Positions 8,960-63,484 of a stretch of 64,000 bases of DNA are shown in pieces. A program made the position numbers and the translations under genes. The notes below the pieces were generated by a model. That model had not been told where the DNA came from. It worked only from the letters and a program-made list of their open reading frames with translations, and did not search any database. The stretch's first letter is position 1, and each line of letters opens with the position of its first letter. Source of the DNA: Eledone cirrhosa (lineage: Eukaryota); NCBI GenBank assembly GCA_964016885.1, contig OZ024741.1, forward strand, positions 148,180,001 to 148,244,000, given 5' to 3'.

Positions 8960-9425
8960 CTTTAACGAAACAAAAACAAAATCACCATCACACATCATCA
9001 TTTTATGTCCGCTTTTCCCAGCTTGCAAGGGTGGGATGGGTCCTGTTCAGCATCTCTCCCCTTGTCACGGTCCTTCGTCATCTCCTCCGTGAGTTTCAGT
9101 GTGTCATAAAAGAAAGAGTGAAAGGTTCTATGTACATTTTAAAATGGGCAGTTTTGTATCATTCTTTCTTTTATAACATGCTGAAACTCACGGCGGAGAT
9201 GACGAAGGACCGTGACAAGTGGAGAGATGCTCGAAATATGATGAAACATAAGTATATAAGCTATAGTTTATTCTGGTCTCAGTACCAAGTAAATAAATAT
9301 CACTGATGATGGATAAAAGTCTTGAAACACTAGTGTCTGGTGTTCTCAGATGGTTAATGAGATATCTGTGATATGCTTACAACTTAAAACATTCATAGTG
9401 AGACTTATACATGTTTATTATACAC

Positions 9426-13007: not shown

Positions 13008-13406
13008 TGAAGTTCAATTCTTGGACCGGGTGATGTGTTGTTTTCTTGAGCAAGAGACTTTATTTCACGTTGCTCCAGTTTACTCAGCTGTAGAAATGAG
13101 ATAATAGGACTGGAGTCCCTATCATTCCACTGCAAAGTGGTTGTGGAGGTGCCACGGCAAAAAAAAAGCACCCAGCCCACACTGTAAAGTGGACATGTAG
13201 GCGCCACAGAAAAAAAAGCACCCAGCACTCACTGTAAATGAGGTTGGTGTTAGGAAGGGCATCCAGCTGTAAAAATCAAGCCAGTATCAGTTCCCATATG
13301 AGCAAGACAAGGTCAGCCAACCGGACACTGCCTACAACAGGACAACCCGTCTAACCCATGCTAGTGTGGAAGAACGGACGTAAAACGGTGATGATGATGA
13401 TGATGA
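13008..13406 (+). mobile_element. SINE (5'-truncated tRNA head) with RTE 3' tail
   Basis: Same central domain as 2937-3250; 3' ~270 bp nearly identical to the RTE 3' UTR at 4878-5140; (GAT)n tail. Confidence 0.85.
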
Positions 13407-13415
13407 AGTGTAACA

Positions 13416-13656
13416 TGGTTCTTGGAGTAATAATAGTAAAAGAATGAAGACTAACATGGTCGGCTGTAGAAAAAGGGGTTTATTTACAGTATTAACAATT
13501 GCTTTGTTAATCAGGTGAGTCTAAAAGTCGCTGATTGTTAGAAATTACGTCACTCGACCTTAATTAGAGTGTTTACCTGATCAAATCATCAGAATACTGG
13601 TGTGTATATAACACAGGGCACTGGTATTTATAGATACATTGGAGAATAACATAAAT
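13416..13656 (-). mobile_element. Displaced distal part of a Penelope-like pseudo-LTR
   Basis: Reverse complement of 32130-32369; continues the minus-strand pLTR that is broken at the (AAT)n near 29480. Confidence 0.85.
13487..13599 (-). ncRNA. Degenerate type I hammerhead ribozyme motif (pLTR copy)
   Basis: CAGTATT-CTGATGA-long stem II-cAAAg (mutated GAAA)-CAATTG-TT-AATACTG. Confidence 0.5.
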
Positions 13657-14003
13657 CATCATCATCATCACCGTTTTACGTCCGTTCTTCCACGCTAGCA
13701 TGGGTTAGACGGGTTGTCCTGTTGTGGGCAGTGTCTGGTCGGCTGACCATGCCTTGCTCATACAGAAACTGATTTGGCTTGATTTCTACAGCTGGATGCC
13801 CTTCCTAACACCAACCTCATTTACAGTGAGTGCTGGGTGCTTTTTCGTGGCGCCTACACGTCCACTTTACAGTGTGGGCTGGGTGCTTTTTTGCCGTGGC
13901 ACCTCCACGACCACCTTGCGGTGGGGGGTGTGGCGGCATATTGTCTATATGCTTCAGCTTGTACCCATGGGAGGTCGGGTACTCTGTATTACTGCGTGAC
14001 ACA
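13657..14003 (-). mobile_element. RTE LINE 3' end fragment
   Basis: Reverse complement of the 4795-5140 region; (CAT)n tail. Confidence 0.88.
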
Positions 14004-14032
14004 GTAATAATAATAATAATAATAGTAATAAT

Positions 14033-14870
14033 AGGGAAGAAGACACACATGGTGGATAGAAGGTCGAGAAATCGCTCCCGTAAGTTTTGATTTTTTAACA
14101 TATTTAAATCAATTGTGAAATAACAATTCTTAGTACGAATGTTGCATAAAACATCCAGCTTGAGTCCCAAAAAATTCGGATCCACAATATATTGTTATAT
14201 CACTCAAATATTCAATTTTGTATTATACATTTTATATTCAAAAAGAAAATGGTTATAAATGGAAGGAAACCCCCTCTGTCTACACTATATAGAACAGCCA
14301 AATAACAGCAATTTCACCAACATCAGAAACTAGATACACCACCTACCCCATCACCCCTCTGTGTACACTAAATACAACAGCCCGATAACGGCAATTTCAC
14401 CACCACCACCACCACCACCAATCTCAGCATAATAATAATAATTACTATTACTATTGCCTCAAGTTTTAGTTTTAACAAAATGTTTAATTCCAATATTATG
14501 GGTAAATGTCAACACATACACGCGACTAACAATAATTTCACTAAAGATAATTTCACCACCAATACCACTACCACAGCCACGATGAAAACTCTGGTCAAGT
14601 CGACTCAAATTTCTACTCCAACTTCAACACCATCACTACAGTAATACGACCACATCACCACCACCGCTTCCTCACTATCGCTACCGCCGCTATTCCCTCC
14701 CTCTACCTCCTACTAGTTGCTGCTAGCACAGCACCGCCACCACCCCCGCCGCCGCTGCCTCAGTATCACTACCGCCACTATTCTCTCCCGCTATCCGCTG
14801 CTACATTGTAGAATTCCCACTAAAAGAGGAAAACATCAAAATATATAAATAGACTGAATTGATGACCCGG
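14033..14870 (+). repeat. Unclassified dispersed leader repeat, copy A1
   Basis: Begins AGGGAAGAAGAC directly after (AAT)n; homologous to 24553-25250; decayed T/P-rich reading frame after AAAAGAAAATG. Confidence 0.75.
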
Positions 14871-15074
14871 TCAAAATAAAAAACAAAAAAAAATAAATAA
14901 AAATAAAAGCAGCACAGCAACAACGAAAAACGTAAAGGAAATAAAAATGAAGAGAAAAACAAACGGACGGACAGAGAAGGGAAGGGAAAAACTAAGTCAG
15001 ACATTCAAATACTACATTACAATGAAACTTATGCTTATTCATTTTTGGGGTTTTTTCTGCCTGTTTGTTTGTTT

Positions 15075-18000
15075 GGGTTCGTCTACAGCGTGATAATGCC
15101 ACACAAAAGTCACGTGGAGTGACGAAACCACCGGAGACAAGTAATTCACCGGTCGTTATGTAACCATACATTCGCCAATCCTCGATAAGAGTGTTTAAAT
15201 GTCGAACCTAAACAGTTCGAATAACGGTGAAATGGAGACTAGAATGTCATGTGACAGACTCTCACCCAACAGGTGCTCCCTGGCTCAGCAGCAGGGACCT
15301 GGCTGTCAACCAAATACTGCTGGTGTTGGAGGAAGAAGAAGAAGGAAAGGGACCAGAACCAACTGGATAAAAGAATTGAATAGAACTGTTATGCAATGTT
15401 ACCTGAAGAGTAACCCCAAGGAGAAAGGCTATAGGAAAAGGATGCATAACATCTGGAACGAGATTGGTCCATTTAAATTAGATGAACAAAAACTGGCCGG
15501 GCAGGCTCGGGTAATAAGAACTAATGGGTGGATAAGCGAGCTGGAACTGGAGGAACTGGGCAGAGAGATTAGCTTGGAGTTGGAGGGTGGAGTATGCCAG
15601 GCAAACGAGCCAGTGGGAAATGAAGGTGAAGAGGTCGAGAGAACGGAGGAACCACCCGAAACAGACAATGATCTGAATGCTGAGATAAATAATACCTGGA
15701 ACAGAGATACGGCCACTGAGGAGATGAATGCTGACGGGCTAGGACAAGATTTGGTAGATATCCTAAACTTAGTGGTAGATGAATTGAACAATGATAGTGG
15801 GAGACCTATGAACCTAAGATTTGTAGACAGGAAAAGGTTAAAAGAAACAACAGCTAAGGTAAACAAAGTCATCCCATACCTTGAGGCGAGGAGCCTTCAC
15901 CAGTGCAACAATATCCTCAAAGCAACAGCAAATACGGTGAGGAAACTACTTGGTATAAAAGCGAGAGGAAACAACAGACAAGAAAGAGCAGAGCCTTGGT
16001 GGAAGAAACGACTGAGTGGTCAAATCAGGGAAATGAGAAATGACATTGGAAAGCTTGAGTCCCTACTGAATGGGACACTAAAAAACATAGACACTAAAAA
16101 TAGACTGGAAATAAAGTACAAAACTAGGAGGAAAAAGCTAAATATTATCATAGAGGAACTGAAGCAACGCATTGTAGCAAAAAGTGCAAAAATCAGGCGA
16201 TACGAGAACAGAGTCAACCAGTATAGACAGAACCGCATGTTCGACAACAACCAGAAGAACCTGTTTGGACAGCTTGAAGGGAAAGAAAGAGGCAACGACT
16301 TGATCCCTGAGGCGGAACAAACTAAAACATTCTGGAGAGGAATATGGGAGCAGGATGTTAAACATAATGACCAGGCAGTGTGGATTGAGATAGTACAGAA
16401 GGAGATCAGTGAACAGGCATGCCAACAAACTGATTTGAGTATCACAGTTGAAACTCTTAAGAGGCAGGCCAAAAAACTAACCAACTGGAAATCACCTGGC
16501 CCAGATGGTGTGCAGAGGTATTGGATTAAAAACATAACATCCCTCCACCCGAAACTGACAACCATGTTCAATGACTGCTTGATGTCAGGTGAGGTACCAG
16601 AGTGGTTGACAAAAGGTACCACAGTTCTGATAATGAAGGACCGAATCAAGGGTAATGATGTTACCAACTATAGACCTATCACATGTCTGTCCGTAATGTG
16701 GAAACTGTTGACAAGCATTATGTCTGAGGAAATCTACCATCACCTCCACACAAACAACTTGTTACCGGACGAACAGAAAGGATGCCGAAAGAAGTCACGT
16801 GGTACAAAGGACCAGTTACTTATTGATAAGATGGTAATGAGGAATTGCAAGAGGAGACTCACTGGTCTTACCATGGGATGGATAGACTACAAAAAGGCAT
16901 TTGACATGGTGCCTCATTCTTGGATCACCAAAAGCCTGGAGATCTTCAAGGTGGCAGATAACATCAGGCAGTTGTTGGGCAAAAGTATGAAGTCCTGGGA
17001 AACAGAGTTAACATCAACTGGAGAATCCTTGGGAAGCGTGAAGATCAAGAGAGGTATCTTCCAGGGAGATAGTCTGTTCCCTCTGTTGTTTGTCCTTGCC
17101 CTGATGCCCCTGACCAGTGTACTGCGAAAAGTGAGAGCAGGATACAGATTGGGAAAGGGAGGGCTTACCATCAATCACCTCCTCTTCATGGACGATCTTA
17201 AGCTCTTCGGGAAGAGTGAGAAGGAGTTGGATGTGCTTGTTGACACTGTCCGTATTTTCAGCAATGATATATGTATGCAATTTGGTATTAGTAAGTGTGG
17301 AGTCATTGTGATGAGGAGGGGTAAGTTGAGCAGAAGTAACGGAATCCAGATACCAACAGGTGAGATGATAAAAGAAATTGACTCTGAAGAAGGATACAAG
17401 TATTTGGGCGTTCTGGAGGCTGATGACATCAAGAACAAAAAAATGAAGGAATTGATAAGAACTGAATACCTTTGGAGAGTAAGGAGCATATTAAAGTCAC
17501 ATCTGAACAGTAGGAATGCCATAAGTGCAGTAAATTCCCGAGCTGTGTCTATTATTAGGTACAGTGCGGGAATTCTGAGATGGAATGTTGCTGAACAAAA
17601 AGAAATGGATAGGAAGACTAGGAAGCTATTGACTATCTACAATATGTTCCACAAGAGGAATGATGTTGATAGACTCTACTTAAGGAGATCTGAGGGTGGA
17701 AGAGATCTTATCAGCATAGAGGACTGTGTTCAGATGGAGAAAAACAACCTACACAAATACGTGACTGATAGTATGGAGCCAATGCTCAGAGCTGTACTGA
17801 AGGAGGGGACAATAGGCCAGGGGATGTCCAAGGAGGAAATAACATCAAGGAGAAAGAGCAGCCTTCAGGAAAAATCCCTTCATAGTACCTTCTTTGAGAA
17901 AACTGAATTTAGAGATCCACAGACATGGAACTGTTTGAAAAGAGGAGACCTTAAAAGGGCTACAGAAGGAATGTTAATGGCTGCGCAGGAGCAAGCCCTC

Positions 18001-18755
18001 AAAACGAAGTGGTTGAAACACCACATTTACAAGGAGGAGGCTAGCCCACTGTGCAGGATCTGTGGAGAGAGAGAGGAGACTGTGGCTCACATTGTATCCG
18101 AGTGTAAACACCTAGCCCAGACTCACTATAAGGGCTGGAGACATGATGTGATGGGCAGGGTGATCCACTGGCACCTATCCAAAGTAAACAATTTACCACA
18201 TTCTGAGAAATGGTATGAGCATAAGCCAGAGTCGGTGATAGAAAACGATCAGGTGAAGGTGCTGTGGGATTTTAGGATACAGACGGACAAGAAACTGGAA
18301 CACAATAGACCTGACCTGGTGGTTTTGGACAAAGAAAAAAGATTGTGCCTGATTGTGGATGTGGCCTGCCCATTCGACACGAGAGTACAAGAGAAGGAGA
18401 GGGAGAAAATTAACCGATACCAGGACTTAAAGTGGGAGGTAAAAAGGATTTGGAACTGCCATGAAGTCCAAGTGATCCCGATTGTCATAGGCGCACTAGG
18501 GACTATCTCAAAAAGTTTCCAGGGATGGTTAAAGAAAATTGGCCCCTTCGCGCTTTTTGGAACGCTTCAAAAGGCATGCTTGCTGGGAACAGCAAGAACC
18601 CTCCGATACGTCCTGAATATCTGAGGCTGCAGGTAGTGGCTTGATATTCATCACAACAAACTTTCCAGTTAGCTAACATCAATGACTGAGACTCAAAGAG
18701 TAATAACAATAATAATAGTAATAATAATAATAATAATAGTAATAATAGTAATAAT
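15075..18755 (+). mobile_element. R4/Dong-clade non-LTR retrotransposon, near full length, with (AAT)n tail
   Basis: Single long ORF with RT, CCHC finger and restriction-like endonuclease; short 3' UTR running into (AAT)n, the repeat type Dong elements target. The 5' boundary is approximate. Confidence 0.85.
15199..18624 (+). CDS. RT-RLE polyprotein, 1141 aa, uninterrupted
   Basis: WKSPGPDG, NYRPITCL, IDYKKAFD, GIFQGD, FMDD, CRIC..ETVAHIVSEC, RHD, RPDLVVLD...IVDVACP, KINRY. Confidence 0.92.
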   Translation: MSNLNSSNNGEMETRMSCDRLSPNRCSLAQQQGPGCQPNTAGVGGRRRRKGTRTNWIKELNRTVMQCYLKSNPKEKGYRKRMHNIWNEIGPFKLDEQKLAGQARVIRTNGWISELELEELGREISLELEGGVCQANEPVGNEGEEVERTEEPPETDNDLNAEINNTWNRDTATEEMNADGLGQDLVDILNLVVDELNNDSGRPMNLRFVDRKRLKETTAKVNKVIPYLEARSLHQCNNILKATANTVRKLLGIKARGNNRQERAEPWWKKRLSGQIREMRNDIGKLESLLNGTLKNIDTKNRLEIKYKTRRKKLNIIIEELKQRIVAKSAKIRRYENRVNQYRQNRMFDNNQKNLFGQLEGKERGNDLIPEAEQTKTFWRGIWEQDVKHNDQAVWIEIVQKEISEQACQQTDLSITVETLKRQAKKLTNWKSPGPDGVQRYWIKNITSLHPKLTTMFNDCLMSGEVPEWLTKGTTVLIMKDRIKGNDVTNYRPITCLSVMWKLLTSIMSEEIYHHLHTNNLLPDEQKGCRKKSRGTKDQLLIDKMVMRNCKRRLTGLTMGWIDYKKAFDMVPHSWITKSLEIFKVADNIRQLLGKSMKSWETELTSTGESLGSVKIKRGIFQGDSLFPLLFVLALMPLTSVLRKVRAGYRLGKGGLTINHLLFMDDLKLFGKSEKELDVLVDTVRIFSNDICMQFGISKCGVIVMRRGKLSRSNGIQIPTGEMIKEIDSEEGYKYLGVLEADDIKNKKMKELIRTEYLWRVRSILKSHLNSRNAISAVNSRAVSIIRYSAGILRWNVAEQKEMDRKTRKLLTIYNMFHKRNDVDRLYLRRSEGGRDLISIEDCVQMEKNNLHKYVTDSMEPMLRAVLKEGTIGQGMSKEEITSRRKSSLQEKSLHSTFFEKTEFRDPQTWNCLKRGDLKRATEGMLMAAQEQALKTKWLKHHIYKEEASPLCRICGEREETVAHIVSECKHLAQTHYKGWRHDVMGRVIHWHLSKVNNLPHSEKWYEHKPESVIENDQVKVLWDFRIQTDKKLEHNRPDLVVLDKEKRLCLIVDVACPFDTRVQEKEREKINRYQDLKWEVKRIWNCHEVQVIPIVIGALGTISKSFQGWLKKIGPFALFGTLQKACLLGTARTLRYVLNI

Positions 18756-19182
18756 GTTTTCTTTATTAACCACAAAGGTTTACATAAAGTAGACATTAAG
18801 GACAGTACAGGACAATACAGGACGGTACAAATGGGCATTTCTGCGTGTAAAAAAAACAGAGGATGAAATAAAATAACAAAGAAAAATTCCCCAATAGGGG
18901 GGGAGACTTCCGAGGGACATTTGTGGAGAAAGCCCATTAAAAGACCACAGTGGCCCTGACCACCAGGGCAAGTGCCCTCTCCCAGTTTTCCACCTTTAAT
19001 TTACAGACACATACTCAGACAAGGCCCATTCATTCGGGCCATTCTTGCTTCTCTCACCCATCTTTCAACAAAATGCTGGGAAGAGAGCACTTCCCTCTCT
19101 ACCCTGATTTTCCTTTTCAGATGAAATTTGAAAAAGTTAATCAGGGCATCACCGAAGAGGTAAGTGCTCGTCTTCAGCCCTT

Positions 19183-22100
19183 TCAAAGGTGTTCAACATA
19201 AACCCACAAGTCAGCAATGCTCGAACAATGGACGAGTGCGTGCAGGACGGTTTCGTCGCCCTGTGCGCATCTCGGACATGCCCGGCTGACGGCACCTCCA
19301 TGCCTGTAAAGTTTAACCCGAACTGGCAAAGCACCCCGGTAGCACTGCCAGGCCAGGGATTTCTGGAAGTTGTCCATAGGCCCCGGCCCGAAAGTCCTTC
19401 CGAAGAGATTGGCTAGTTGATTTTCGTCGACGCCTAGAGTTTCTCTAAGTACATCGTCGCTCTTCCCCTCCACTAATCCCCTATAGAACGCCAAGGTGGA
19501 GTTTCCACCGATCACATTGCCCGATTGGTCGAGGGCTGTGAGAGCCTGAAGACATTCCAGTCTCCAAGCGCTCCCTCTCGGTCTTCGCTTGACCCAGGAC
19601 TGCAGCTCCGTCAAGAAGACGAGCTGGGGAAAAACGCGTCTAGCAAACGGCAACCACACCTGATCACCGTCGAGGAAGAGGTGGAGATGTCGTAGCCTGA
19701 GCGCGTGTCTGCGCATCATCAGCCACGGCATGCCCAGCCCTCCACGTAGCGGGTGTTGACAGCAGATGGACCGCCTGACCATCGGAGCGCGTCCCTTCCA
19801 CAAGAAGCAAAAGAGCAAACGCTCCAGCGCAGTCAGGCGGGGCTTAGGACAAGGTACGACGGTCAGGCGGTAGTAGATGACGGACGCGATGTACGCGTTA
19901 GCCACCTCCGCTCGACCTTTCAGGGATAGCTTCCTTTCGGCCCATTTCTGGGTGAGAGAAGCCACCCTGCTCGTCACCTCGTCCCAGTTTTTGACCGTCT
20001 GGAGGTCCGGACCGAACCAGAGCCCTAGCAATTTAACCGGTCCGTCCGTCCAGCGCCCGACGACACTGTTGGACGGCATGGACCTGCCTCTCCAGGTGCC
20101 GAGCTGCAGGCCCACTGACTTTTCCTGGTTGATCATTGCTCCTGTCACCGCTTCGTATTCTCTTAGTGTAGTGCCGATCGCCTCGATGTGTTTGGCATTC
20201 GACACCACTATGGTGACATCGTCCGCATATGCTGACACGGATCTTCCGCATCCTAGCTCGCGCGGGACCTCCCTCAACGTCTCCAGTTTGTGCAGTAATG
20301 GCTCGAGAGTCAATACGTACAATAGGGACGAGAGGGGACATCCTTGGCGGACCGAGCGCATGATGTTGAATGGTTCCGAAAGGTGACCGTTCACTCTCAC
20401 TACAGAGCAGATGTCGCTGTGCATGGCAGCGATCCAGCCTCTGAAGACGGGCCCAAAGCCAGCCGCCCTCAGGACTGCCGCTAGGTAACGATGGTCGACC
20501 CTATCGAAGGCTTTCGACTGATCTAAATTGATCAAAGACCCATCCGTGTCAGGTTCCCTAGCTACCCTCTCTACGATGTATCGCATGAGGTGGAGGTTGT
20601 CGTGGATGGATCTGTCGGGAATGGCGCATGTCTGTGCCTCTCCCACCAGACCACCAACGACAAGCGCCAACCTCTTTGCTAGCACCTTGGCCAAAATCTT
20701 GAACTCTGTGTTTAGCAGTTATGGGCCTGAAATTATCCCCCTTGTTCGGATCCTTTCTCAGCAGCGCCACCGCTCCTCGGCTCACAGAGCTGGGAATTCT
20801 CCCGTTCTGTTGCCAGTTGCAGTAGACGTCCGCCAAGAGGCCTCCGAACAAGTCTGGCATTTGTACGTAAAGTTCATAGGGCAGACCATCCAAACCAGGC
20901 GATTTACCCCTTGTGCAACTAGTCAATGCATCCCGTACTTCAGCGGTTGTTATCGGCTTTTCGCAACACTCCGCCTCAGTGGCCGAAAGCCGCGGCAGTC
21001 CGTCGAGGTAGACACTAAAGTCCATCCCTTGATCCGGCCCGCCATTGCCCCCGAACAGTTGAGCGAAGTGTCGCTGAAAAGCTTCACACATTTGCCCGGG
21101 ATCGAGTAGCATGCGCCTGTCGTGGTCCACCAAAGACCGGATCGTGGCTTTGTTGCCACGACGCGCCTCCGCCACTCGGGCCCATTGAACGGCTTTCGTC
21201 CCCTCGTGTCTGAGAGCACGCACCCTAGCTCTGACAACGCAGCCTTCGTGCTGTGCATTGAAGAATTGGTCAAGGGCCAATTTCGCCGCAAGTACGTCGA
21301 TCGCAATGCCTTTGCTAAGCGCCTCGTCTAATTTTCTAACTAATTCTCCCTCTGCTCTATTTTTCTCTATTGCTAAAGCCTTACTAAACCTAATGGACTC
21401 TATTCTAATTGCTCTTTTCAGAGCAAACCACCACTTGTTGTTGACGATGGCCCCCGTCAACGCCCGCTTAACTAGTTCGCTAATCCGGTCTCTGTAGGCC
21501 TTGCGCGCTGGTAAGGACGCGTTTAGCTTCCAGTAGCCGGGTCCTCGTCTATGAAGCCTATCTAAGTCAAGCACACAGATTACGAATTTGTGGTCCGTGT
21601 AGCTGACTATCTTGAATTGTGGACAGCCTATGCTAGACTTATCTATTTCCCTACAAAATACTCTATCTAGATATGATCTGGATGACCCTATGCGATTTGT
21701 CCAAGTCCACATTGGTACATTCGGGAAATCTATTCGGTACCTGTCAGACAGTTCAAAACGCCTGAGCAGGTTGGTGAGACTCTTGCACCCTCCTTCCCTA
21801 TCCACTAATCCCACACAATCCCAGCGTGCATCTAAGATCCCGTTCCAGTCGCCCACTAACACTAAAGAGCGGGACGTTCCAAGAAAGGTCTCCAGACGCC
21901 GGAAGAAATCAGGCCGCCCTGCTCCTGTCGGGGCATAGACGGCCACTAACCTGAAAGCTTGCCCGTCTCCGCTGGTCACGTCCAGCACCACCAACTTACC
22001 TTCTGGGTCCAGGAAGATGGCCCGTATGGCAAGATTCAAACCTCTCCGAAAAAGCACAGCAACTCCTCCTCCAGATCCCGGACGGCTGGGAGATGCGTAC

Positions 22101-22270
22101 ACATCGTAGCCGACGAAGATCGGTGCGAAGGCCCGTGCTTCGGAGATTCTGGTCTCGCTGATGGCCACTACATCTATATTTAGTGACCTGAGGTCGTTGA
22201 GCAGGTGGCCCTGCTTCCATGACGACCCCAAGCCACGCGTATTTATGCTGCCTATTCTGAGTGAGGTCAT
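19183..22270 (-). pseudogene. Tx1 ORF2 (APE endonuclease, RT, CCHC), frameshifted
   Basis: SINTRG, VGDWN, SYLDRVF, YTDH, KSPGLDGL, DQSKAFD, RQGCPLS, YADD, CPRC..ETVLHALVHC; frameshift near 20710. Confidence 0.9.
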
Positions 22271-22304
22271 GTTGAAAAGGAGTGGAAAAGATGGGAAAGA
22301 CCAC

Positions 22305-24308
22305 TTACCTTACTTCTCGTAGGGGAAGGACGGTTTTTCCATCCTTTTCACTGCTTGTGGCCTCTTCAGGAAGGATGTCCTTATAAATCCTCCTGGAGAG
22401 TGCTTGTCGGAAGTCTCCGATGTCTTTGGGGAATTTTTGTTTTAGTGTCATGTACGTTTTCTGTGTGATGCGAGTGATTTGTATGTGTGGAGGTGGTGTG
22501 AATTTTGGGGTTGTTGTGTAGTCTTTTTCTGTGATGCTGGTGTTGTGTTGGATGTAGTGTAATAATTGCTTGTTGTTCAAATTTAATGCTGTGTAGTGTG
22601 TATCGTTTTGGTTGTTTTGTTTTGTTTGCGTTTGTTGTGGGTTTGTTTCTGTTTCGCATTTTGGTGACTTTTGTGGTGTAGGTGATGGTGGTGTTGGGGT
22701 TAATGATGGTGATGGTGTTGGTGTTTGGGTTGATGGGGTTGGTGATGCTGGTGTGGATGGTGGCATATCTGTCCTAACTTTTTTGTTTCTTAATTTATTT
22801 GTTTCCCTCTGTATTTTGTTTTTGGAGGGGGAAGGAAGAGAATTTTTTCTTTTTAGTTTCTTTTTTTTTTTCCGGATATCATTTCCCACTCCTCGTCGTC
22901 ACAATCTGTCTTCAGTTGTGATAGGCCGGGGAGTGGAAAATCCTCCACAGGCATTAGTTTTGGTTGTGACGTGGTGGATGGTGTAGGCGCTGGTGCTAGT
23001 TCTGAAGCGTTGGGTGGTGATGGTGTTGGTTTTGCTGGTGGTGGTAGTGGTGTTGGTTTTGCTACTGTTGCTGGGGTTGTTGCTGTTATAGTTGCTTCTG
23101 TTGTTGCTGCTACAGTTGTTGCTGCCATCTCTGCTACTGGTGGTCTTGATGGTTGTGTCACTGGGGTGGGTAGGAGAAGTGGCCTCAACCTTTTAGCCTG
23201 AGGGCAGAAAGCCCTTAGGTGGGTTCCTTCACCACAAACGATACACCTAGGTCTTCTGCCCTCGACAATTACCGTGAGGTGGCTGCCGTCAGTGAGGTCT
23301 ATTACCTCTGGGATCTCCTCAATGCTTTTTTGGTCCGCTTGGATCAGGAGCTCCATCCCAGATCCGGACCAGTTCTCCTGCTTTTCTTTTGCTATTGCTG
23401 TTATTTTTGTGTTGGCTTCGATGCCGGCGAGGACGGCCGCTATTAGCCAGGGAATTTCGATGGCCGGTGGAACGTGGGTCACCCTGATCTTTACAAGTCT
23501 CTGGCCACAATAGCTTGGGACGAGTATGAAGTCATCACTTCTTAATGGGGCCATGGAGTGTTCTCTAGCCTCCTCTGGTGTTTCAAAGAACACGTCCACG
23601 GTTCCATACTTCTGCCCACATCTGATGTGGGTTTTTCTTGCCCACACATGTCCCAAAGCTTTTTGGATTTGGGACTTGGATGCCCGTTCCACTCGGCGCG
23701 ATTTTACATTTATTGTTCGATACGACACGGTGCATAGGCGCCGATGCTCCATTTTATTAGGTGGGGGGGGGGGGGGGGGTGAGGCTGACCCTGTACCCGT
23801 CTTTCTTTACCATTTGTTTGGCATTTTCTAAATCCCCCTGAGTTACCATAAATGCTTCGAACTGTTTTGCTACTCTGGCAAAACTGAGGATGGGTTTTAT
23901 AATGTCATTGTTGTTGTTGTTGCTATCGTTATTTGTGTTAATATTAATTTTAGTTTCAGTTGTGGTGGTGGTGACGTCAGTCGTCTTTGGTGGGGAAGAG
24001 TCCATTTTGCTTGATTTCATTTCGACATCACGAGTTAATTTATTTTTTTCTTCTTTTGTTTCTGTTGTCGCGGTGTTGGTGGGGGTGGTGGTTGTCGCGG
24101 TGGTGGTGGTGGTGGAGGCTTTAACCCCTGCAGTCATTGGTAATGGCGGGAAATGAATGTCTGCCTGAGACAAATTTAAAATATTGCTACTGCTTATATT
24201 TTTTGTAGTGTTGGCAAACGTAGTAACATTTACAATGGTGGTGTCGGTGTGAGGTGTTAATTTGTGAGGAAGGCTTTCAGCTGCTTGGTGCAGAGGTGAA
24301 TTAGCCAT
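22305..24308 (-). pseudogene. Tx1 ORF1 (T/P-rich, zinc knuckle), broken at homopolymer runs
   Basis: ATG at 24308 (MANSPLH); VEGRRPRCIVCGEGTHLRAFCP knuckle; frames shift at the G run ~23763-23779 and T run ~22861-22871. Confidence 0.75.
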
Positions 24309-24516
24309 TTTTTTCAAAGAAATTTTTTGATAATAATAAAAGTTTAAATTTGGGGCACAAGGCCCCAATCTTTTTGGGTGTCCTTTTCGGAAAACAATGT
24401 ATGTGCGCTTATATATGGTTAACAATAACAATTTTCCATAAATGGCAATTTTTAACAAACGGAAATAACAAACCTTTGCGGAGTTCACGATGATACGATT
24501 TACTACGTAGGTCGCC

Positions 24517-24552
<36 letters not shown>

Positions 24553-24553
<1 letters not shown>

Positions 24554-25250
24554 GGGAAGAAGACGCACAAGGTGGTAGAAGGTCATGAAATCGCTCCCGT
24601 AAGTTTTTGATTTTTAACATATTTAAATCAATTGTGAAATAACAATTCTTAGTACAAATGTTGCATAAACCACCGAATGAGGTCCCATAAAATTTCGGAT
24701 CCATATTATATTGTTATATCGCTCAAATATTCAATTTTGTATTATATATTTTGTATTCAAAAAAAGAAAATGGTGATAAATGGAAGAAAACACCCTCTGT
24801 CTACACTATATAGAACAGCCAAATAACAGCAATTTCACCAACACCAGAAACTTGATACACCACCTATCCCATCACACTAAATATAACAGCCAGATATCGG
24901 CAATTTCACCACCACCACCATCAATCCCAGCATCATAATAATAATTACTATTATTATTGTCTCAAATTTTAACAAAATGTTTAATTCCAATTTTACGGGA
25001 ATATGTCAACACAATATATATTAAACATACGAACACAAACTCATAGATACTACATATCACAAAACCCAGTAACCACAACGCCACCACCCCATCCATCATT
25101 GCTACCACTATCCCATTGCCGCCGCCACCACTCCTTCATTGCTACCACCACTATTCCCCTGTTAACTTGAGAGAGAAAGGGGAAGGTGGCGGTATCACTA
25201 GACAAGGGAGAGGCTATCAAAAGATATAAATAGATTGACTTAGTGACCTG
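24553..25250 (+). repeat. Unclassified dispersed leader repeat, copy A2
   Basis: Same start AGGGAAGAAGAC after (AAT)n; aligns by eye with 14033-14870. Confidence 0.75.
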
Positions 25251-25530
25251 GCCACCGGCCAAACGTCAACATCAACAACTATGGGACTGCTGGCTCACCC
25301 CTTCCTCACCAACAATATAAAAAGCCCCGGCACCACCACCGACATAGCCAACAACAATAACAGGCAACTACAGCAAAAAGTATATTATATTATTGTAATG
25401 CACTGGGTGATTGCTGGCCTTGTGCCTGGAGTGGAGACAATTATTAATAATTTCATTCTTAAGCCACGCAATGCTCACATTAAGGAACCACTCATGATAA
25501 TAACAATTTAAAAAAAACAACAAAAAGAAA

Positions 25531-28500
25531 ACCCTGTGACCAAGAAATACCGGGATGGCGGCCGGCGGGGAATAGCCGTGTCTCTAGGGGAGAACGACCC
25601 CTCTAGTCTTGGTTGACACTCGTTCTAGAAGTGGTAACACGAAATGATTACCCCTTGGCGGATAAGGATAAAACGCGACAAAATAAAGTAAATGTCTAAT
25701 GATAAAATCTCATACCGGATCGGCCGTCACCCGGGTAAAAAAGGGCCGCGTCCCTCAGAGAGGAACCAGACTGGGGTCGAAAAATCAGCTAATGGTTCAA
25801 ACCTTCCCATCACTTCGGAGCTGGAGACCTCCCATAACCGGAATACTCCTACTGTTGGCCCTCCATGCTCACCACCAACAAATCCAAAGAAAAAGAGAGA
25901 AAAATGGTCAAGGGAAGATAATAAAGAAGTCCTTGAGGCTTTCTACACTGCCATGTACTACCCATCAAATACATCGAATACAGAACAGACATATATCAAC
26001 TGGAAAAAGAAACATCCCGAAAACAGAGGCTATATTGACAGTAACAAACTAGCCAATATACGAAGAAATATTGTAAGAAAAAAGTTACTAACTGATATAG
26101 AAATTGATCAGATCAAGCTATTAGCACAAAGTCAGCGAAGGGAAAATGAAACATGTGTCAGTGAAAACGAGGTAAACTGTAACACTTCGAATCCCAGGGT
26201 TGGGGCGGAATCACTGGCAACAGAACAAATTACAGAAAGGATCGAAAAAGTGGAGGGAGTGCATGCTCAGGATGAAACCCCAAATGAAAATAATGAGATC
26301 GTAAATGATAAAGAAATGAATGAGAATGAACTTGCCAACTTGAAGGATGAAATTATGATCGAATGGATGAAAATGAAAGAATCTGACATGGGGCAACGAG
26401 ACACCCTCCCTAAGATCCAGAACTCCAAACAGAACCAAAAGATAATACACAAGACTAACATAATTCTCAAAAACATTATCATCACAAACAAACTAAACAT
26501 TACTGATTTAAATCATCTCTATTATGCATCGGCTAAAGTCACCACTCACTTATGTGGAGTGAAGATGAAAAAACAAAGGAATTCCAACAAGAAATCTACT
26601 TGGCAAGAGAACATTAATCGCTAAATAAACCTTCTCCGATCTGACATAGAAATTTTAACAAACTATAAAGTAGGTGAACATGTTAAACAAACTAAACTTA
26701 GAAAATTGAAAAGAAAGTACAGTATAAAATCAACATGTGACATAGACATGCTGATAGAAATAATCAAGCAAAAAGTGTCGGCCAAAGCTGCTCGTATAAG
26801 GCGCTTTGAAAAACGATCTAGACTCTATAAGGACAATAATATGTTCAAAAACAACCAAAGAAACTTCTACAGAAAAATTGGTAAGTCAACAATAACTGCT
26901 AAATCAATACCACCCAAGGAGGAAGTGCAAGAATTCTGGGAAAAGATCTGGGCCGAAGAAAAAGTTCATAACATACATGCCCCATGGATAGACAGACAAA
27001 TAAATGATACAGCTCACCTTGAGGAACAAATATGGGAAAATATAACAGTTGAACAGTTGCGCTTGGCTCTAAGAAAAACCAGCAAATGGAAATCCCCAGG
27101 AAAAGACAAAATACAAAACTTTTGGATAAATGCCTTCACAGAGTCTCATGAGCTGTTAGCCCAACTTTACAATGAAATAGTTAAGGAGCCAGAAAAGATA
27201 TAATCATGGCTAGTTAACGGCATTACATTCCTGCTTCCGAAGAATGATGAGACAAACAATCCCAAAAATTACAGACCGATAACTTGCTTGACCACAATGT
27301 ATAAAATTTTAACATCAGTCCTAACTGAATACACATATGACCACCTGATAACAAATGACCTATTTCCCATTGAGCAGAAAGGGTGTAAACGAGGCTCATA
27401 TGGCTGTAAGGATCAGCTTCTGGTTAACAAAATGATACTGGAAGATTGTCATAATAGACACAAAAATCTATCGATTGCTTGGATAGATTATAAAAAAGCA
27501 TTTGATAGTTTGCCACACAGTTGGATTGAAAAATGTTTAGAGATTTTCAAAATATCCCCCGTTGTCAGGAGGTTTTTGTCATTCAGTATGAAGACATGGA
27601 AAACGACACTCCTTTTGAATAGTGAAACAAAATCACTGGAAGCTGGAGAAGTTAATATTAATTGTGGAATTTTTCAGGGTGACTCTTTATCACCGCTTTT
27701 ATTCTGCATCGCACTTATACCATTAAGTAAAATGCTCAATGAAACAAAACATGGATATAAAGTCTATGACAAAACCATTAATCACCTGTTCTACATGGAT
27801 GACCTGAAACTATTTGCAAAAAATGATGAACAATTGCAAGGGCTATTATCCACTGTGGAGCAGTTCAGTGATGACATTAAAATGGAGTTTGGACTAGATA
27901 AATGCGCCAAAGCAACGCTCACCAGAGGAAAGCTGCTGAAGAGTTCAGACATTAATCTTGATCGGGGGAATGTGATAAGAGAACTTGATCAAGAGGAAAC
28001 TTACAAATATCTAGGTGTTTGTGAAGGAGACGGAATCAAGCACTCGACAATGAGGGAAAAGATAAGGAAGGAATGTTACCGCAGAGTAAGAGCAATCTTA
28101 AGAACGGAATTGAATGCAAGGAATAGGATCGATGCCATAAACACGCTTGCCATACCAGTAGTAACCTACAGTTACAATGTCATCAACTGGTCAAGCACAG
28201 AGATCCGTAGGCTCGATTCGAAAATTCTTAACCATGCACAGAATGCATCACCCTAAGGCAGATATAGATAGAATATACCTCCCTAGAAAAGAAGGAGAAC
28301 GTGGGTTAATCCAGTTAGACATTGCGTTGAAAACTGCAACAATTGGATTATCTACATATCTAAGGGAATCACATGATTGGATGATCAAACTCGTTTTGAA
28401 ACACGAAAGCATCAAAAGATCATATTCCATTACAAAAGATGCACAAAGATACAGTAATGGACTACAAATTTCAGAAGTCCCATTTACTGCTGAAATGGAA

Positions 28501-29506
28501 AACACAGAAAAAGCAAAGCAGGTAAAAGTAACTGCAAAGAAAGAACTGCTACAGAAACTGGCTAAGAAATGGCAAGAAAAGCCTCTGTATGGAAAATACC
28601 CAGAGCGAGCTAACAATCCTGATGTTGACAAAACTTTAACCCATCAGTGGTTGGCATCCTCTGGACTGAAATCGGAGACTGAAGGACTGATTATATCAGC
28701 ACAAGATCAGTGTCTGCCAACAAAAAATTACCAAGCCAACATAATAAAAAATGGATGCAGCCCATTATGCCGTGTCTGCAAAAAACAACCAGAGACCATT
28801 GACCATATAATTTCAATGTGCAGTCCTATAGCTCCAACCGAATACCTAAACAGGCATGACAGAGCTGCACAATACATACACTGGATAATGTGTAAGCATT
28901 TTGACCTGCCCCATCAAAAGAATTGGTGGGAGCATCAACCACCTCCCATACTTGAAAAAGATCACATCTCAATCTTGTGGAACTTTAGCATCCAAACAGA
29001 CCGAAAAATAGATGCAAATAGACCTGATATAATACTGAAGGACTTTAAAAAGAGGGTATGCCTGCTAATTGATATGTCCGTTCCAATAGACAAGAATGTA
29101 TCTATAAAAACATTTGAAAAATTGAGCAAGTATAAGGACCTGGAGATAGAAATTGGAAAAATGTGGAAATTGAGAACTAAAACAATACCAGTGGCTGTAG
29201 GCGCTCTGGGAATGATACCTAAGGGGTCTAACGACTACTTTTCCCAAATCCCAGGAAACCCGCGTATAGGAGAAATTCAAAAGATAGTACTAATGGGAAC
29301 TGCCCATATACTAAGGAAGATTCTGTCAATATAAGTACATCACAAGTCTAAACACTAAAGATGCATGTGTGAGTATGTATGTTCTTTCTTGAACATGGCG
29401 GACCTTGTTGTCTCTTGAGGTCACTGGTTGTGATTTGGTGATAACTCGTATGAACATAAAGCAAGATAAATGCAACTGTAATAATAATAATAATAATAAT
29501 AATAAT
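25531..29506 (+). mobile_element. Second, divergent R4/Dong-clade LINE, full length but disrupted
   Basis: ORF pieces 25692-26624, 26706-27203, 27288-28256, 28177-29334: WKSPGKD, IDYKKAFD, YMDD, CRVC..ETIDHIISMC, RHD, RPDIIL..LIDMSVP; (AAT)n tail. Confidence 0.9.
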
Positions 29507-31500
29507 ACGGTTACTGATAATAGTAGTAGTGGTGGTAGTAGTAGTCGTAGTTGTAATGGTGAGTAGATAGATGTGTAAAATAGTAACAATAATAATAACA
29601 TGACTAACAATAATAATAACATGAAAAGAATTTTTGGAAAGACTATATATGATAGGCAAAATGCTGGTTTTTTTGTAGACTGGTGTATTGGATTGGCACC
29701 ATTCTAATATAGTGGATTGAGATCATGAATTGGCGAAAGGTTGGGATAATTTGAATGTTTTATCTTAATGGAGGTGATGCGTCTATAAAAAAAAATTTGA
29801 GGGATTGCTGAGATTGATTTAATGACCGGTTGGTCAACTGACATCTAATAACAGTGAGGAGGTATAAAGTTGGTCTGTTGGCATCAGTCTAATAGACATT
29901 TTAATCAGGGTGGTTTTGACTGGATACTGAGATCGCTAGATCGAATTATGCTGGTCGCGGTTTGAAGTTGGAGAATTTAGTGGCTGCTTTGTGCCTACAG
30001 AAGATTGTTCGCTTGATCTTGTTATTGAGCAGCATTTTATTATATTTTAGAATATGAAGCAGCTCCATATTGCAGAGTCCGCAGTGGGACATTCCATTTC
30101 TGTAAGTCCTTGCATTCGATAACTTCGACCAGCTAATCTCATATTCCCGATTAATGTCCTTAAGCTGCCAGTTTATTGGCCAACGTTGTTGTATTACCGA
30201 GTTTTCATTTTTTTATGAAGTGTCTATGCACATACCATCTTTTTTTGAAGTCGCCAACCGTAGAACCTATGTAGTGCCATGCTAGGTTGCCAGACTTGAT
30301 AGTGCACAGGTATACCATACTTGACTCCAGGCATCTTTTCTGCAGTAGGCATTTATCCAGTAGGTGGTAGTTACATTTGGAGGCCTTCCTGTGTGCAGGT
30401 TCCTCATTGCAGTTTAGTATGTTGTTTGGGATAGGCTGATTTATTGGTGTTTTGTTGCGACATATCCTGGCGTGTGGGTGGTTGTGATGCTGTTACGTGT
30501 TTGCATTTTGTATTTGATGTTACGGTGTATGTTGGTAGACTACATTCTTTAGAGATTCTTTTATAGTTGATTTTATGTATGTGTGATTCGATGTTCGCTG
30601 CAGTAGAGTAAGAGAGTTTAATGGTTTTTCTGTTGAAGATTCTATGGTATTTCTGTGGTTTAGAGAAGTGCTTATCAATTAATTTAAAGAATATAGAAGG
30701 TAGGTTGGTCCTTATGGAGGAGTTGAAAATTGGATTGAACCATAAATATTTCCTACTTCTGGTTTCTCCATATTAATGTTCGGTTCGGCTATTTTGTGTA
30801 TCTGTTGCCTATTTCTATGTTTAGTTCTATATTTGTTATTCCTATAAGTGTAGGTGGCGCAGTTGTCGTTAGGTTTGTACTTGTAGTTGCTGTCTCCATC
30901 AGGTATATATTTGAGCCCCTCATTGTGACCTGCTTTACGAAAAACTGTTATAGTAGTTTGCGTGTTCATTGAATATTTCTAGATTTGAAGAGAGGCGAGA
31001 TATTCTGAGGGATATACTGTGTGCTATCGAATTAATTATGGAGTGAGGATGGTTGGAGTTATAACTAATCTAGGCTAGATTCTGGTTATTTTTATGGAAA
31101 GGCTCTATTGGTCCTGTGTTTAAGTTGAATGTTACATCTAGGAAATTTACTTTTTTAGAATTTAGTTCGAAAGTGATACCCAGGCCTAGTCTACTGAAGA
31201 AAACCATAATGTTTTTCCATAATCTTTCCATGCTTTGATTGTTCATGTTTTTAGCCAGAAGGAGCGTGTCGTTCCTGTAAATCCTCCCTTGGAGGTTACT
31301 AAATTCCTTATGCAAGTTATGTGCTATATATATATTCCTACTATGTCTGTTACTTGCACTGAGTCGTTAGATCCCATTGTAATGTCGAAAGCTATTCTGC
31401 CTGTTTCTTCATTCCCAGTAATTATTTTCGAATCTAATAATAGTTCTCCTAGCAGCTAGTATTATTCTAATTTCATCAGAGGTTAGGTCTGAATTTTTCC
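29507..31500 (-). mobile_element. Penelope-like element body (5'-truncated RT, GIY-YIG, pLTR), decayed
   Basis: FDITMGS, IYRND (degenerate YRDD), VNFLDVTF, WFN.PP-like segment; MVYLCTI..WHYIGST..FKKRWY GIY-YIG motif near 30230-30320. Confidence 0.8.
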
Positions 31501-32369
31501 ACTAAATTCTCCAACTTCAAACTGTGACCGGCATAATTCGATCTAGCGATCTCAGTATCCAGTCAAAACCACCCGGATTAAAATGTTTATTAGACCGACA
31601 CCAACAGACCAACTTTATACCTCCTCACTGTTATTAGATGTCAGTTGACGCATCACCTCCATTAAGATAAAACATTCAAATTACCCCAATCTTAATCACT
31701 CATATGTTATCATTGTCCCTTTTACTTTTCATTCTCTATTTATCTATTTACTGTTTTCTGATTTTTATTATCTTTTATTTTTTGTTTTCGACTCCTTATT
31801 CTTTATTTTTATCTCCTATTCTTTATCTTTTACTTTTTATTTGTATCTTTTATTATTTTTATCACTTTTTATTTCGCCAATTCATGATCTCAATCCACTA
31901 TATTAGAATGGTGCCAATCCAATACACCAGTCTACAAAAAACTAGCATTTCGCCTATCATATATAGTCTTTCCAAAAATTCTTTTCATGTTATTATTATT
32001 GTTAGTCATGTTATTATTATTGTTACTATTTTACACATCTATCTACTCACCATTACAACTACGACTACTACTACCACCACTACTACTATTATCAGTAACT
32101 GTATTATTATTATTATTATTATTGTTTTCATTTATGTTATTCTCCAATGTATCTATAAATACCAGTGCCCTGTGTTATATACACACCAGTATTCTGATGA
32201 TTTGATCAGGTAAACACTGTAATTAAGGTCAAGTGACATAATTTCTAACGATCAGTGGCTTTTAGACTCACCTGATTAACAAAACAATTGTTAATACTGT
32301 AAATAAATCCTTTTTCTACAGCCAACCATGTTATTCTTCATTCTTTTACTATTATTACTCCAAGAACCA
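31501..32369 (+). mobile_element. Inverted pseudo-LTR of the same Penelope-like element
   Basis: 31501-32120 is the reverse complement of ~29480-29981 (with indels); 32130-32369 is the reverse complement of 13416-13656. Confidence 0.85.
32187..32299 (+). ncRNA. Degenerate type I hammerhead ribozyme motif with long stem II insert
   Basis: Stem I CAGTATT/AATACTG; CTGATGA; stem II TTGATCAGGT/ACCTGATTAA; cAAAA in place of cGAAA; palindromic ACAATTGT stem III. Confidence 0.55.
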
Positions 32370-32453
32370 CCTGCCTAGGAACTTTCTTAAACTGGCCACC
32401 TGATTACCTTAAACGATACCTTTTTATCCTATATATATATATATATATATATA

Positions 32454-33345
32454 AGGTTTAGGATGGTGTTTTGGACGGAACAAGAGAAAAGAAGAAAGAA
32501 TCCTTCGTCAGCTGTAAATCCGCAATCTAGATGCTTCGGCGCTTATTTAAAGGACATCTGTAGCGATTGGCAGTGCACCCGAGGCCTTTTCTTAATCAAA
32601 AGGCCAGGAGGAAAAGAAGAGAAAAAGGAGAGAAAAAAAAGAAAGGAAAAAGAAGGAAAAGAGGAAGAAGAACAAAGGGGGAAAGGTGGTGAGAAGAGAA
32701 GAAGAAAGAGAAAAAGGAAAAAAAGGAGAAAAAAGGTGAACAGATCCCATCGTGGGGAGACACAGGACAAAGGAACAGGCAAATGAGTAACCGTGAAAAA
32801 ATAGGATGAGTAAGTTATAGCACACCTGGTAGACTTAAGCCTGGTAGGATGCGCTAACAGAAGACGGTATTAGCATGTCGCCTCTATCATAGAAGAGAGA
32901 GAGAGTGAGAGAGAGAGATTAAGACACGAGCAACCGGAAGTTGAGACGGAGAAGGGAAAATGAGATAATCCAAAAGCAGTTTTACGACAGTGGTAAAACA
33001 TGTTGTAAAAGATTGCGAACAGAGATTTTACGACACGTGTAAACTTGTCAACAATCGAAACCGAAAAGATGGATAGAGTGAGGGAGAGAGAGACGAGGAC
33101 AAGGGAAGAGTCGATGCGAAAGCGTAGTAGGAACACAGATCGAACAAAACAGGTAGAGGGGGGTTACACCAGTAAATACAAAATGATAAGAAACAAAAGG
33201 AGCTGTGTGGTTACTAAAAACAAGGTTTAGGATGGTGGTTTGGACGGAACAAGAGGAGAAAAGAAGAAAGAATCCTTCGTCAGCTGTAAATCTGCAATCC
33301 AGATGTTTCGGCGCTTGGGCTTCTGTGCAGTTTCCATTTACCAAA
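32454..33345 (-). repeat. Partial tandem repeat remnant, possibly a non-autonomous Penelope-type pLTR
   Basis: ~90-bp direct repeat (32454-32543 and 33222-33316) carrying GAAAC..CTGACGA on the minus strand; abuts (TA)n. Confidence 0.45.
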
Positions 33346-63360: not shown

Positions 63361-63484
63361 CGATCTTTATGCTGAAATTTTATAGTTTTAAGCAGACAGT
63401 ATTATTGATTTAGGTGTCATAGAAACCCTGCATTTGGATTTTACCATCAATTCCACTTGGGTCCAGGTCTGTTTATATCATTTA

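What the first reader, a model, noticed from the sequence alone, without database searches (positions are those of the whole stretch)
13416..32369. A ~19-kb stack of retroelements from different clades joined at one (AAT)n tract
Seen: a Penelope pLTR is split at its internal (AAT)n. The two halves (13416-13656 and 29507 onward) are separated by an RTE tail, leader A1 + R4/Dong LINE 1, a full Tx1 LINE in opposite orientation, and leader A2 + R4/Dong LINE 2. Most outer junctions are (AAT)n (14005-14032, 18701-18755, 24517-24552, 29479-29506). The intact inverted pLTR (31501-32369) shows the pre-insertion state. Knowledge: Dong and several Tx1 families are repeat-targeted. Inference: a mobile element distributes a microsatellite landing pad that RLE- and APE-type elements both use and regenerate, forming a self-perpetuating hotspot.
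Basis: partly seen in the sequence, partly recalled or inferred. Interest (0 to 1): 0.75.

Follow-up and report, generated by a model that had tools for sequence, protein, structure and literature searches.

The report
Retrotransposon stack inside a Penelope repeat
An old Penelope jumping gene is split at a short AAT repeat by 16 kb of younger jumping genes of two unrelated kinds, which sit in such repeats across this genome facing opposite ways and likely add fresh repeat each time they insert; the same spot is occupied in about half of the other Penelope copies checked, although Penelope likely supplies only a small share of these landing sites.

Summary
The stack is real in the assembly. 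One Penelope-like insertion with inverted arms is split by 15,850 bp: a Dong/R4-like LINE (+), a Tx1-like LINE (-) and a second Dong-like LINE (+), all in the arm's (AAT)n tract, plus an RTE tail 2 bp outside it.

Elsewhere in the genome, 137 of 145 ends of these LINEs abut the repeat: Dong on the AAT strand, Tx1 on the ATT strand. So do 25 of 32 5'-truncated Dong copies (background 0.25%). The RTE family does not (0 of 29). The same tract is occupied in 18 of 37 other classifiable Penelope arms, twice by 8-9 kb stacks.

Two corrections. The RTE is not AAT-targeted. Penelope looks like a minor supplier of pads: 0 of 145 LINE ends touched a pLTR, while 121 touched Dong, Tx1 or SINE relatives. 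No read was seen to span a junction, so that check stays open.

The scan found the Dong/Tx1 AAT system many times before on other DNA of this genome; the Penelope seed was not in the notes shown. Verdict: a new variant of known microsatellite targeting (Dong, Kibi/Koshi, SART/TRAS).

The parts
13416..13656 (-). Outer piece of the split pLTR arm (3' end of the Penelope-like element, without the terminal tail)
   Evidence: 95.4% to 32130-32369; best genomic match to the intact arm
13657..14002 (-). 5'-truncated RTE-type tail with (GAT)n end; 2 bp outside the AAT tract, 4 bp of target lost; not AAT-targeted; closest to its family majority (0.3%)
14003..14032 (+). (AAT)n tract 1, 30 bp, outer end of the original pLTR tract
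14033..18700 (+). Dong/R4-like LINE 1, full length: leader A1 plus open 1141-aa ORF 15199-18624 (RT, CCHC, PD-(D/E)xK-type end)
18701..18755 (+). (AAT)n tract 2, 55 bp, tail-to-tail junction; starts with the TAATAACAA tail variant shared by 20 of 29 other LINE 1 copies
18756..24516 (-). Tx1/L1-like LINE, both ends present (5' GGCGAC, 3' GAAAAC); ORF1 and ORF2 (APE, RT, zf-RVT) broken by frameshifts
24517..24553 (+). (AAT)n tract 3, 37 bp, head-to-head junction
24554..29478 (+). Dong/R4-like LINE 2, full length: leader A2 (87% to A1 over about 500 bp) plus ORF 25692-29334 with two stops and a frameshift; 35-41% aa identity to LINE 1
29479..29506 (+). (AAT)n tract 4, 28 bp, inner end of the original pLTR tract
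29507..31500 (-). Inner piece of the split arm and 5'-truncated, decayed Penelope-like ORF (RT end and GIY-YIG-like end, read by eye; no Pfam hit)
31501..32405 (+). Inverted, unsplit arm with (ATT)7 tract at 32102-32124 and about 36 bp terminal tail beyond 32369; (TA)n follows at 32430

Best explanation
One old Penelope-like insertion is split at the (AAT/ATT)n tract of one arm by a Tx1-like LINE and two Dong-like LINEs, which likely inserted one after another because their endonucleases likely cut opposite strands of that repeat and each insertion likely leaves fresh repeat on both sides. SHOWN: the nesting; the strand rule (Dong sense strand reads AAT at both ends, Tx1 and a SINE read ATT); repeat at the 5' junctions of truncated copies; more repeat after than before; the same tract occupied in other Penelope arms. 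INFERRED from target-primed reverse transcription (established knowledge): the Dong RLE nicks the (ATT)n strand and the Tx1 APE nicks the (AAT)n strand, and the repeat tail of the RNA pairs with the nicked strand. Target duplication, a templated tail and slippage then rebuild a pad on each side. INFERRED order from divergence: Penelope, then Tx1 (centre), then the two Dongs in the pads on either side. The RTE tail came independently and probably last. The Penelope tract is a frequently used seed, but likely a minor one beside the tails of Dong, Tx1 and SINE copies.
For: Ends of the 29 nearest non-window copies: LINE 1 5' 25/29 and 3' 28/29 AAT; LINE 2 3' 28/29 AAT; Tx1 5' 29/29 and 3' 27/29 ATT. 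The Tx1 5' junction is ATTATT|GG in 29 of 29. Dong copies picked by 3' identity alone and truncated within view start at AAT in 11/17 and 14/15. Over all fetched loci the counts are 39/55, 34/37 and Tx1 7/10, against 0.245% background. Neighbouring elements obey the polarity in 107 of 109 pairs. In 60 evenly spaced 10-kb stretches, 6 of 16 tracts abut these LINEs and all 8 LINE ends there have the expected strand. The LINE 1 tail variant TAATAACAA recurs in 20 of 29 copies, so the tail start is inherited. Of 52 distinct other pLTR arms, 18 are occupied at the tract, 19 are empty and 15 are uninformative (hand tally); 10 of the 18 hold a LINE and 9 have both flanks. Two hold 9.2-kb and 8.1-kb stacks. 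Divergence: arms 21/618 apart (about 1.7% each), Tx1 51/3641, LINE 1 38/3607, LINE 2 31/3648, RTE 1/328; Tx1 vs LINE 2 p=0.027. RTE control 0/29 and 0/19.
Against: No read or contig was seen to span a junction. No enzyme was tested. Copies were sampled as the 29 closest of 40 scored, which favours young copies and the largest chromosomes. Tx1 vs LINE 1 (p=0.20) and LINE 1 vs LINE 2 (p=0.40) ages do not differ, and the arm age interval (1.1-2.6%) overlaps the Tx1 and LINE 1 values. Seven of 32 truncated Dong copies do not start at AAT, and two neighbour pairs break the polarity (L017, L071). One LINE 1 sits on the pLTR sense strand where the tract flips (L257). Nine of 18 occupied arms show one flank only or a deleted inner side. 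The exact-pattern sample favours arms whose tract was restored by a SINE tail. Clade names rest on architecture and target, not on a tree with reference elements.
Confidence: 0.8

Rival explanations
2. The repeats are only the elements' own tails, and the stack is passive pile-up in transposon-rich DNA.
For: The tails are partly inherited. Most neighbours are other elements' tails.
Against: Repeat lies at the 5' junctions of truncated copies (25 of 32) and of full-length Tx1 (29 of 29), where a tail cannot explain it. The RTE control is 0 of 19 and 0 of 29. Polarity holds in 107 of 109 pairs.
Confidence: 0.04
3. The stack was moved or copied in as a block by recombination or duplication between repeats, not by serial insertion.
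For: At G000:C28:114.44-114.46 Mb four full LINE 2 copies repeat every 4,955 bp with the same identity values and near-identical spacers, so duplication builds some arrays.
Against: Here the three LINEs belong to three families. The nearest relatives have varied neighbours, and no second copy of this stack appeared among 40 scored hits per search.
Confidence: 0.05
4. Assembly artefact: repeats joined through AAT tracts.
For: No spanning read was seen, and the joins lie in simple repeats.
Against: The two halves are the closest matches of the intact arm and join up to within 4 bp across 15.85 kb. Other loci show the same split at the same tract.
Confidence: 0.04

Closest known systems
Dong (R4 clade, RLE): Bombyx Dong, DongAg, DongBg, Darwinula Dong1/2 (PMC3812793, PMC7998251, PMC3774820; passages read)
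   Same: [quoted passage not shown]
   Different: Two families with 35-41% aa identity share a leader 87% identical in DNA. They share the target with an APE-type LINE. No ribozyme was detected by Rfam.
Microsatellite-specific Tx1 families: Kibi (TC)n, Koshi (TTC)n, crocodilian (TTCC)n/(TTTC)n (PMC4494074; passages read)
   Same: Two ORFs, APE-RT-zinc finger, strict microsatellite target.
   Different: The target is (ATT)n, not listed in the passages read or found in searches. It is shared with an RLE clade.
SART and TRAS on Bombyx telomeric (TTAGG)n (PMC7265360; passages read)
   Same: Two families in one repeat in opposite orientations, with strand choice set by the endonuclease.
   Different: Their endonuclease domains can be swapped and both are R1-clade APE elements (clade recalled). 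Their target is telomeric and host-made. Here the partners are RLE and APE, and the target is interstitial and partly rebuilt by the elements.
Tx1 in Tx1D and Tx1-Mar/SINEU in Mariner-N4 (PMC4494074; passages read)
   Same: One transposon carries the target of a LINE and its SINE around the genome.
   Different: There the target is a unique sequence of the host transposon. Here it is a generic microsatellite that Penelope happens to carry and supplies in a minority of cases.
Penelope-like elements with inverted pLTRs and a 30-40 bp one-sided tail (PMC8557442; passages read)
   Same: 5'-truncated body, adjacent inverted copy, tail at one end, ends at (TA)n in many copies.
   Different: An internal ATT tract is used as a hotspot by other clades; no paper on this turned up in one search.

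Membership tests
R4/Dong clade (LINE 1, LINE 2) | Single ORF with RT followed by CCHC and restriction-like endonuclease; no APE | tested here: met
   1141-aa ORF, Pfam RVT_1 only. CxxC...HxxxxC, RH and PD...D...K motifs read in the translation (motif definitions recalled). Best solved relatives are R2 proteins, E 2e-29, ahead of L1, E 8e-13.
R4/Dong clade (LINE 1, LINE 2) | (TAA)n target | tested here: met
   target as stated in PMC7998251
R4/Dong clade (LINE 1, LINE 2) | No N-terminal zinc fingers; divergent Myb/SANT domain | tested here: inconclusive
   No N-terminal Pfam hit. The remote Myb match needs an HHpred-type search, which was not run.
R4/Dong clade (LINE 1, LINE 2) | RT phylogeny groups with R4 and Dong | not testable with these tools
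   The 120 homologues listed carry no clade names; no Repbase references are held.
R4/Dong clade (LINE 1, LINE 2) | HDV-like ribozyme at the 5' end (shown for Bombyx Dong, PMC3774820) | tested here: inconclusive
   No ribozyme family up to E=5 over 13300-33000; Rfam may lack a fitting model.
Tx1 clade | ORF1 plus ORF2 with APE, RT and C-terminal zinc finger | tested here: met
   Exo_endo_phos, RVT_1 and zf-RVT; L1 ORF2p is the closest solved relative.
Tx1 clade | Target-sequence preference (over 20% of flanks, criterion of PMC4494074) | tested here: met
   29 of 29 5' ends and 27 of 29 3' ends at ATT
Tx1 clade | RT phylogeny groups with Tx1/Keno/Kibi/Koshi rather than L1 | not testable with these tools
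Homologues carry no clade names.
Penelope-like element | pLTR in tandem or inverted arrangement with a one-sided 30-40 bp tail | tested here: met
   compared with the description in PMC8557442
Penelope-like element | RT followed by GIY-YIG endonuclease | tested here: inconclusive
   The decayed frames show an RT-end-like stretch and a Y...YIG...R stretch by eye (motifs recalled). Pfam gave no relevant hit.
Penelope-like element | Hammerhead ribozyme in the pLTR | tested here: inconclusive
   One CUGANGA core on the sense strand at arm position 694; no Rfam hit.
RTE clade (tail at 13657-14002) | RT ORF ending in an RTE-type C-terminus and a short tandem-repeat tail | tested here: inconclusive
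   A longer copy at 3416-5146 has RVT_1 plus PHD and a (GAT)n tail. The clade motifs are recalled and no tree was built.

The most novel reading that the evidence does not exclude
A three-tier niche among transposons. A Penelope family that ends in (TA)n repeats carries an ATT tract to new places. An APE-type LINE, its likely SINE and two RLE-type LINE families colonise the tract from opposite strands and multiply it. Penelope arms would then seed a sizeable share of the thousands of polarised stacks in this genome.
Probability: 0.2. Interest if true: 0.68.

Novelty: new variant of a known kind. Interest (0 to 1): 0.48.

Why it matters
An RLE and an APE enzyme reading opposite strands of one 3-base repeat form a natural pair for testing how unrelated retrotransposon endonucleases recognise a target. 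The inverted Penelope arms supply a built-in before-and-after control: an empty 23-bp tract beside one that has grown to 15.85 kb. They also give a clock for pad growth. The mechanism would explain part of the transposon hotspots and AAT microsatellites of such genomes. A 2026 octopus annotation lists Dong-R4 and L1-Tx1 among the recently active LINEs and maps hotspots, without a targeting explanation in the parts read (PMC13282606).

Tried and rejected
- Read support: the run search found only short-contig and RAD-seq runs. Two layings showed no piece bridging a junction. Run X16 covers the Penelope body at depth about 12 with no differences in the listed pieces, but it may not be independent. 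Neither for nor against.
- Leader A as a separate element: rejected.
- RTE as an AAT-targeted member: rejected. Of the 28 rows that labelled truncated, 9 stop at the same reference position and are not truncations, so they were dropped, leaving 19.
- Tx1-derived leader (earlier notes): against this window's Tx1 5' region only low-complexity matches appeared; other Tx1 families were not tested.
- Rfam: no ribozyme. Pfam on the decayed Penelope frames: nothing relevant. Homologue searches gave no clade names. The protein atlas gave no result.
- The automatic pLTR classifier called L269/L381, L376 and the 573-641 piece of L154/L169 'empty' because BLAST aligned over expanded repeats. These were corrected by hand.
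- One search was cut in the middle; those loci were recounted.
- Nine literature searches returned no paper on an ATT-specific Tx1, on Dong/Tx1 sharing, or on a pLTR as landing pad. Repbase and most subscription journals are not covered, Kojima and Fujiwara 2004 was not read, and no supplements were read; an ATT-specific Tx1 may be listed there.
Full report
SETTING. The window is G000:C2:148,180,001-148,244,000 of a 3.0-Gb animal assembly. The repeat content looks octopod to me (recalled, and echoed in earlier notes); this was not determined here.

ANATOMY. Self-comparison shows an inverted repeat. The arm at 31501-32369 matches three pieces on the other strand: 29833-29983, 29483-29738 and 13416-13656. 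Between the last two lie 15,850 bp, in this order: an RTE-type tail (13657-14002, minus), 30 bp AAT, LINE 1 (14033-18700, plus), 55 bp AAT, a Tx1-like LINE (18756-24516, minus), 37 bp AAT, LINE 2 (24554-29478, plus) and 28 bp AAT. LINE 1 has an open 1141-aa ORF with RT and a restriction-like end, closest to R2 proteins among solved structures. LINE 2 is 35-41% identical to it in protein and carries two stops and a frameshift. The Tx1-like copy has APE, RT and zf-RVT in broken frames. The body at 29984-31500 is a decayed, 5'-truncated Penelope-like ORF read by eye; Pfam does not confirm it. The layout (truncated body, adjacent inverted copy, 30-40 bp tail at one end) is the one described for Penelope-like elements in PMC8557442 (passages). 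The right arm indeed runs about 36 bp beyond 32369.

ONE INSERTION, SPLIT. Each split half is the best non-self match to the intact arm among 40 scored candidates (95% vs 93%; 99% vs 82% for the next-ranked hit). The intact arm reads ...CATAAAT GAAA AC AAT...; the split arm reads ...CATAAAT [RTE] AC AGT AAT.... So the halves meet to within 4 bp, and the RTE lies 2 bp outside the tract without a target duplication.

TARGETING. For five ends I took the 29 closest non-window copies. The repeat abuts 25, 28 and 28 of 29 Dong ends as AAT on the sense strand, and 29 and 27 of 29 Tx1 ends as ATT: 137 of 145. The Tx1 5' junction has one phase in 29 of 29. A tail cannot explain a 5' junction, so truncated copies are the key test. 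Among Dong copies chosen by 3' identity alone, 11 of 17 and 14 of 15 start at AAT; 12 and 14 others were not truncated within view. Over all loci fetched by then the counts are 39/55, 34/37 and Tx1 7/10, against a background of 0.245%. The control family, the RTE tail, has no AAT/ATT at 29 3' flanks (19 are TA-rich) and none at 19 truncated 5' ends. Of the 145 ends, 109 abut another LINE 1, LINE 2, Tx1 or a roughly 190-bp SINE with ATT ends, and 107 of these pairs obey the rule that Dong faces one way and Tx1/SINE the other. In 60 evenly spaced 10-kb stretches, 6 of 16 tracts of five or more units abut these LINEs, 4 tract rows abut the SINE and 6 abut nothing in my library. Two of the 60 stretches hold stacks, so stacks are common in this genome.

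RENEWAL. The intact arm has 23 bp of repeat; the split arm has 150 bp in four tracts. The first nine bases of the LINE 1 tail carry the same AAC variant in 20 of 29 copies, so the tail start is copied from the element. How the rest grows (target duplication, slippage) is inferred.

THE PENELOPE PAD. Three searches gave 65 non-window loci, which reduce to 52 distinct arms. By hand are occupied at the tract by Dong, Tx1-like or SINE copies, 19 are empty and 15 are uninformative (inversion junctions, truncations, two RTE cases, one unidentified 400-bp insert). That is 18 of 37 classifiable arms, 95% interval 32-66%. Ten hold a LINE and nine have both flanks. G000:C3:345.96 Mb and G000:C1:142.07 Mb are independent 9.2-kb and 8.1-kb stacks split at the same tract. 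As a rough control, among 10 arms from the inner-side search that run through an empty tract, one is broken by a Tx1 end in the next 220 bp. The pad is therefore a real, recurrent hotspot. It is not the main source. No pLTR abuts any of the 145 LINE ends. Of the 36 ends without a library neighbour, 12 are other Dong/Tx1 relatives, 2 are CR1 tails and 22 are simple or unique DNA. pLTR is 0.14% of the even sample, the SINE 1.94%, and Dong/Tx1 relatives 4.1%. The family is also old: other arms are 67-93% identical to this one.

ORDER. The arms differ at 21 of 618 positions, about 1.7% each if they were identical at insertion. Against the majority of their nearest relatives, the window's Tx1 differs at 1.4%, LINE 1 at 1.05%, LINE 2 at 0.85% and the RTE at 0.3%. 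Only Tx1 vs LINE 2 is significant, p=0.027. The picture fits Tx1 first, in the centre, then one Dong in each daughter pad. Subfamily structure and the choice of nearest copies weaken this dating.

LEADERS. A1 and A2 are the true 5' ends of their families. They are 87% alike over about 500 bp, while the ORFs do not align as DNA. In a tree of 32 leaders, 15 LINE 2 leaders form a well-supported group, but three LINE 2 copies (L285, L294, L295) fall with or near the LINE 1 leaders. This fits exchange of leaders but does not prove it. Three tandem duplicates were left out of the tree, and 25 of 60 loci had no full leader in view.

MECHANISM. By target-primed reverse transcription (established knowledge), the nicked primer strand is complementary to the element RNA. 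Dong would therefore nick the ATT strand and Tx1 the AAT strand, each RNA tail pairing with its strand, and every insertion would leave two pads. The enzymes were not tested.

COMPARISON. Dong targets (TAA)n in insects, mollusks and cnidarians (PMC3812793, PMC7998251; passages). Tx1 families target (TC)n, (TTC)n, (TTCC)n or other transposons (PMC4494074; passages). SART and TRAS share a telomeric repeat in opposite orientations (PMC7265360; passages). Retrotransposon tails give birth to microsatellites (PMC3812793; passages). Each ingredient has a precedent. An ATT-specific Tx1-like family sharing its target with Dong, and a pLTR serving as seed, were not found in nine searches, which do not cover Repbase or most subscription journals. 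It works like Dong, Kibi/Koshi and SART/TRAS. Membership in R4/Dong and Tx1 is met on architecture and target and is untested by phylogeny. This scan has reported the Dong/Tx1 AAT system and the shared leader many times in this genome. No note shown names a Penelope seed, and a sequence look-up with the arm found nothing.

LIMITS. No read was seen to span a junction. The samples are small and favour close copies.

VERDICT. Observation confirmed with corrections; interpretation partly supported; new variant of a known kind; interest 0.48.

Noticed in passing
window 14033-14520 and 24554-25013; L285, L294, L295: Two Dong-like families with 35-41% protein identity share an 87% identical leader; three LINE 2 copies carry leaders that group with or near LINE 1 leaders.
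   Followed up: partly
window 25395-25445: A SINE 3' fragment is a fixed part of the LINE 2 leader in most copies that reach that far.
   Followed up: partly
L306-L308 (G000:C28:114,443,349-114,463,144): Four full-length LINE 2 copies in tandem, period 4,955 bp, with near-identical spacers, likely duplicated rather than inserted one by one.
   Followed up: partly
L159, L161, L163-L165, L167, L169, L171-L174, L180: 12 of 28 pLTR arms end at arm position 848-855, mostly against TA (some CA or CT) repeats, which suggests that this Penelope family itself prefers (TA)n.
   Followed up: partly
pLTR positions about 505-525 and 550-570 (window 32005-32070 equivalents): The SINE repeatedly sits at two further ATT-like motifs of the same pLTR.
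   Followed up: partly
L022, L027, L085, L089; L055, L057, L112, L131, L134, L137: At least one more Tx1-like family (ORF1 about 50-55% identical) and older Tx1-like 3' ends use the same ATT pads.
   Followed up: partly
L035, L124: The tails of a CR1-like element also seed stacks.
   Followed up: partly
L012, L018, L059, L117, L287: Tracts turn from (AAT)n into (AAG)n just before a Dong 5' end.
   Followed up: no
window 13127-13406 and 3416-5146: A second RTE-type tail lies 10 bp left of the Penelope end; a longer RTE-type copy carries a PHD finger after RT.
   Followed up: no
window 9416-10081 and 63476-64000; 9049-9231; 37418-37873: A 93-bp tandem repeat unit present twice in the window at 96% identity, and two palindromic stretches.
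   Followed up: no
window 39133-40878 (-): A 581-aa open frame without a Pfam hit.
   Followed up: no
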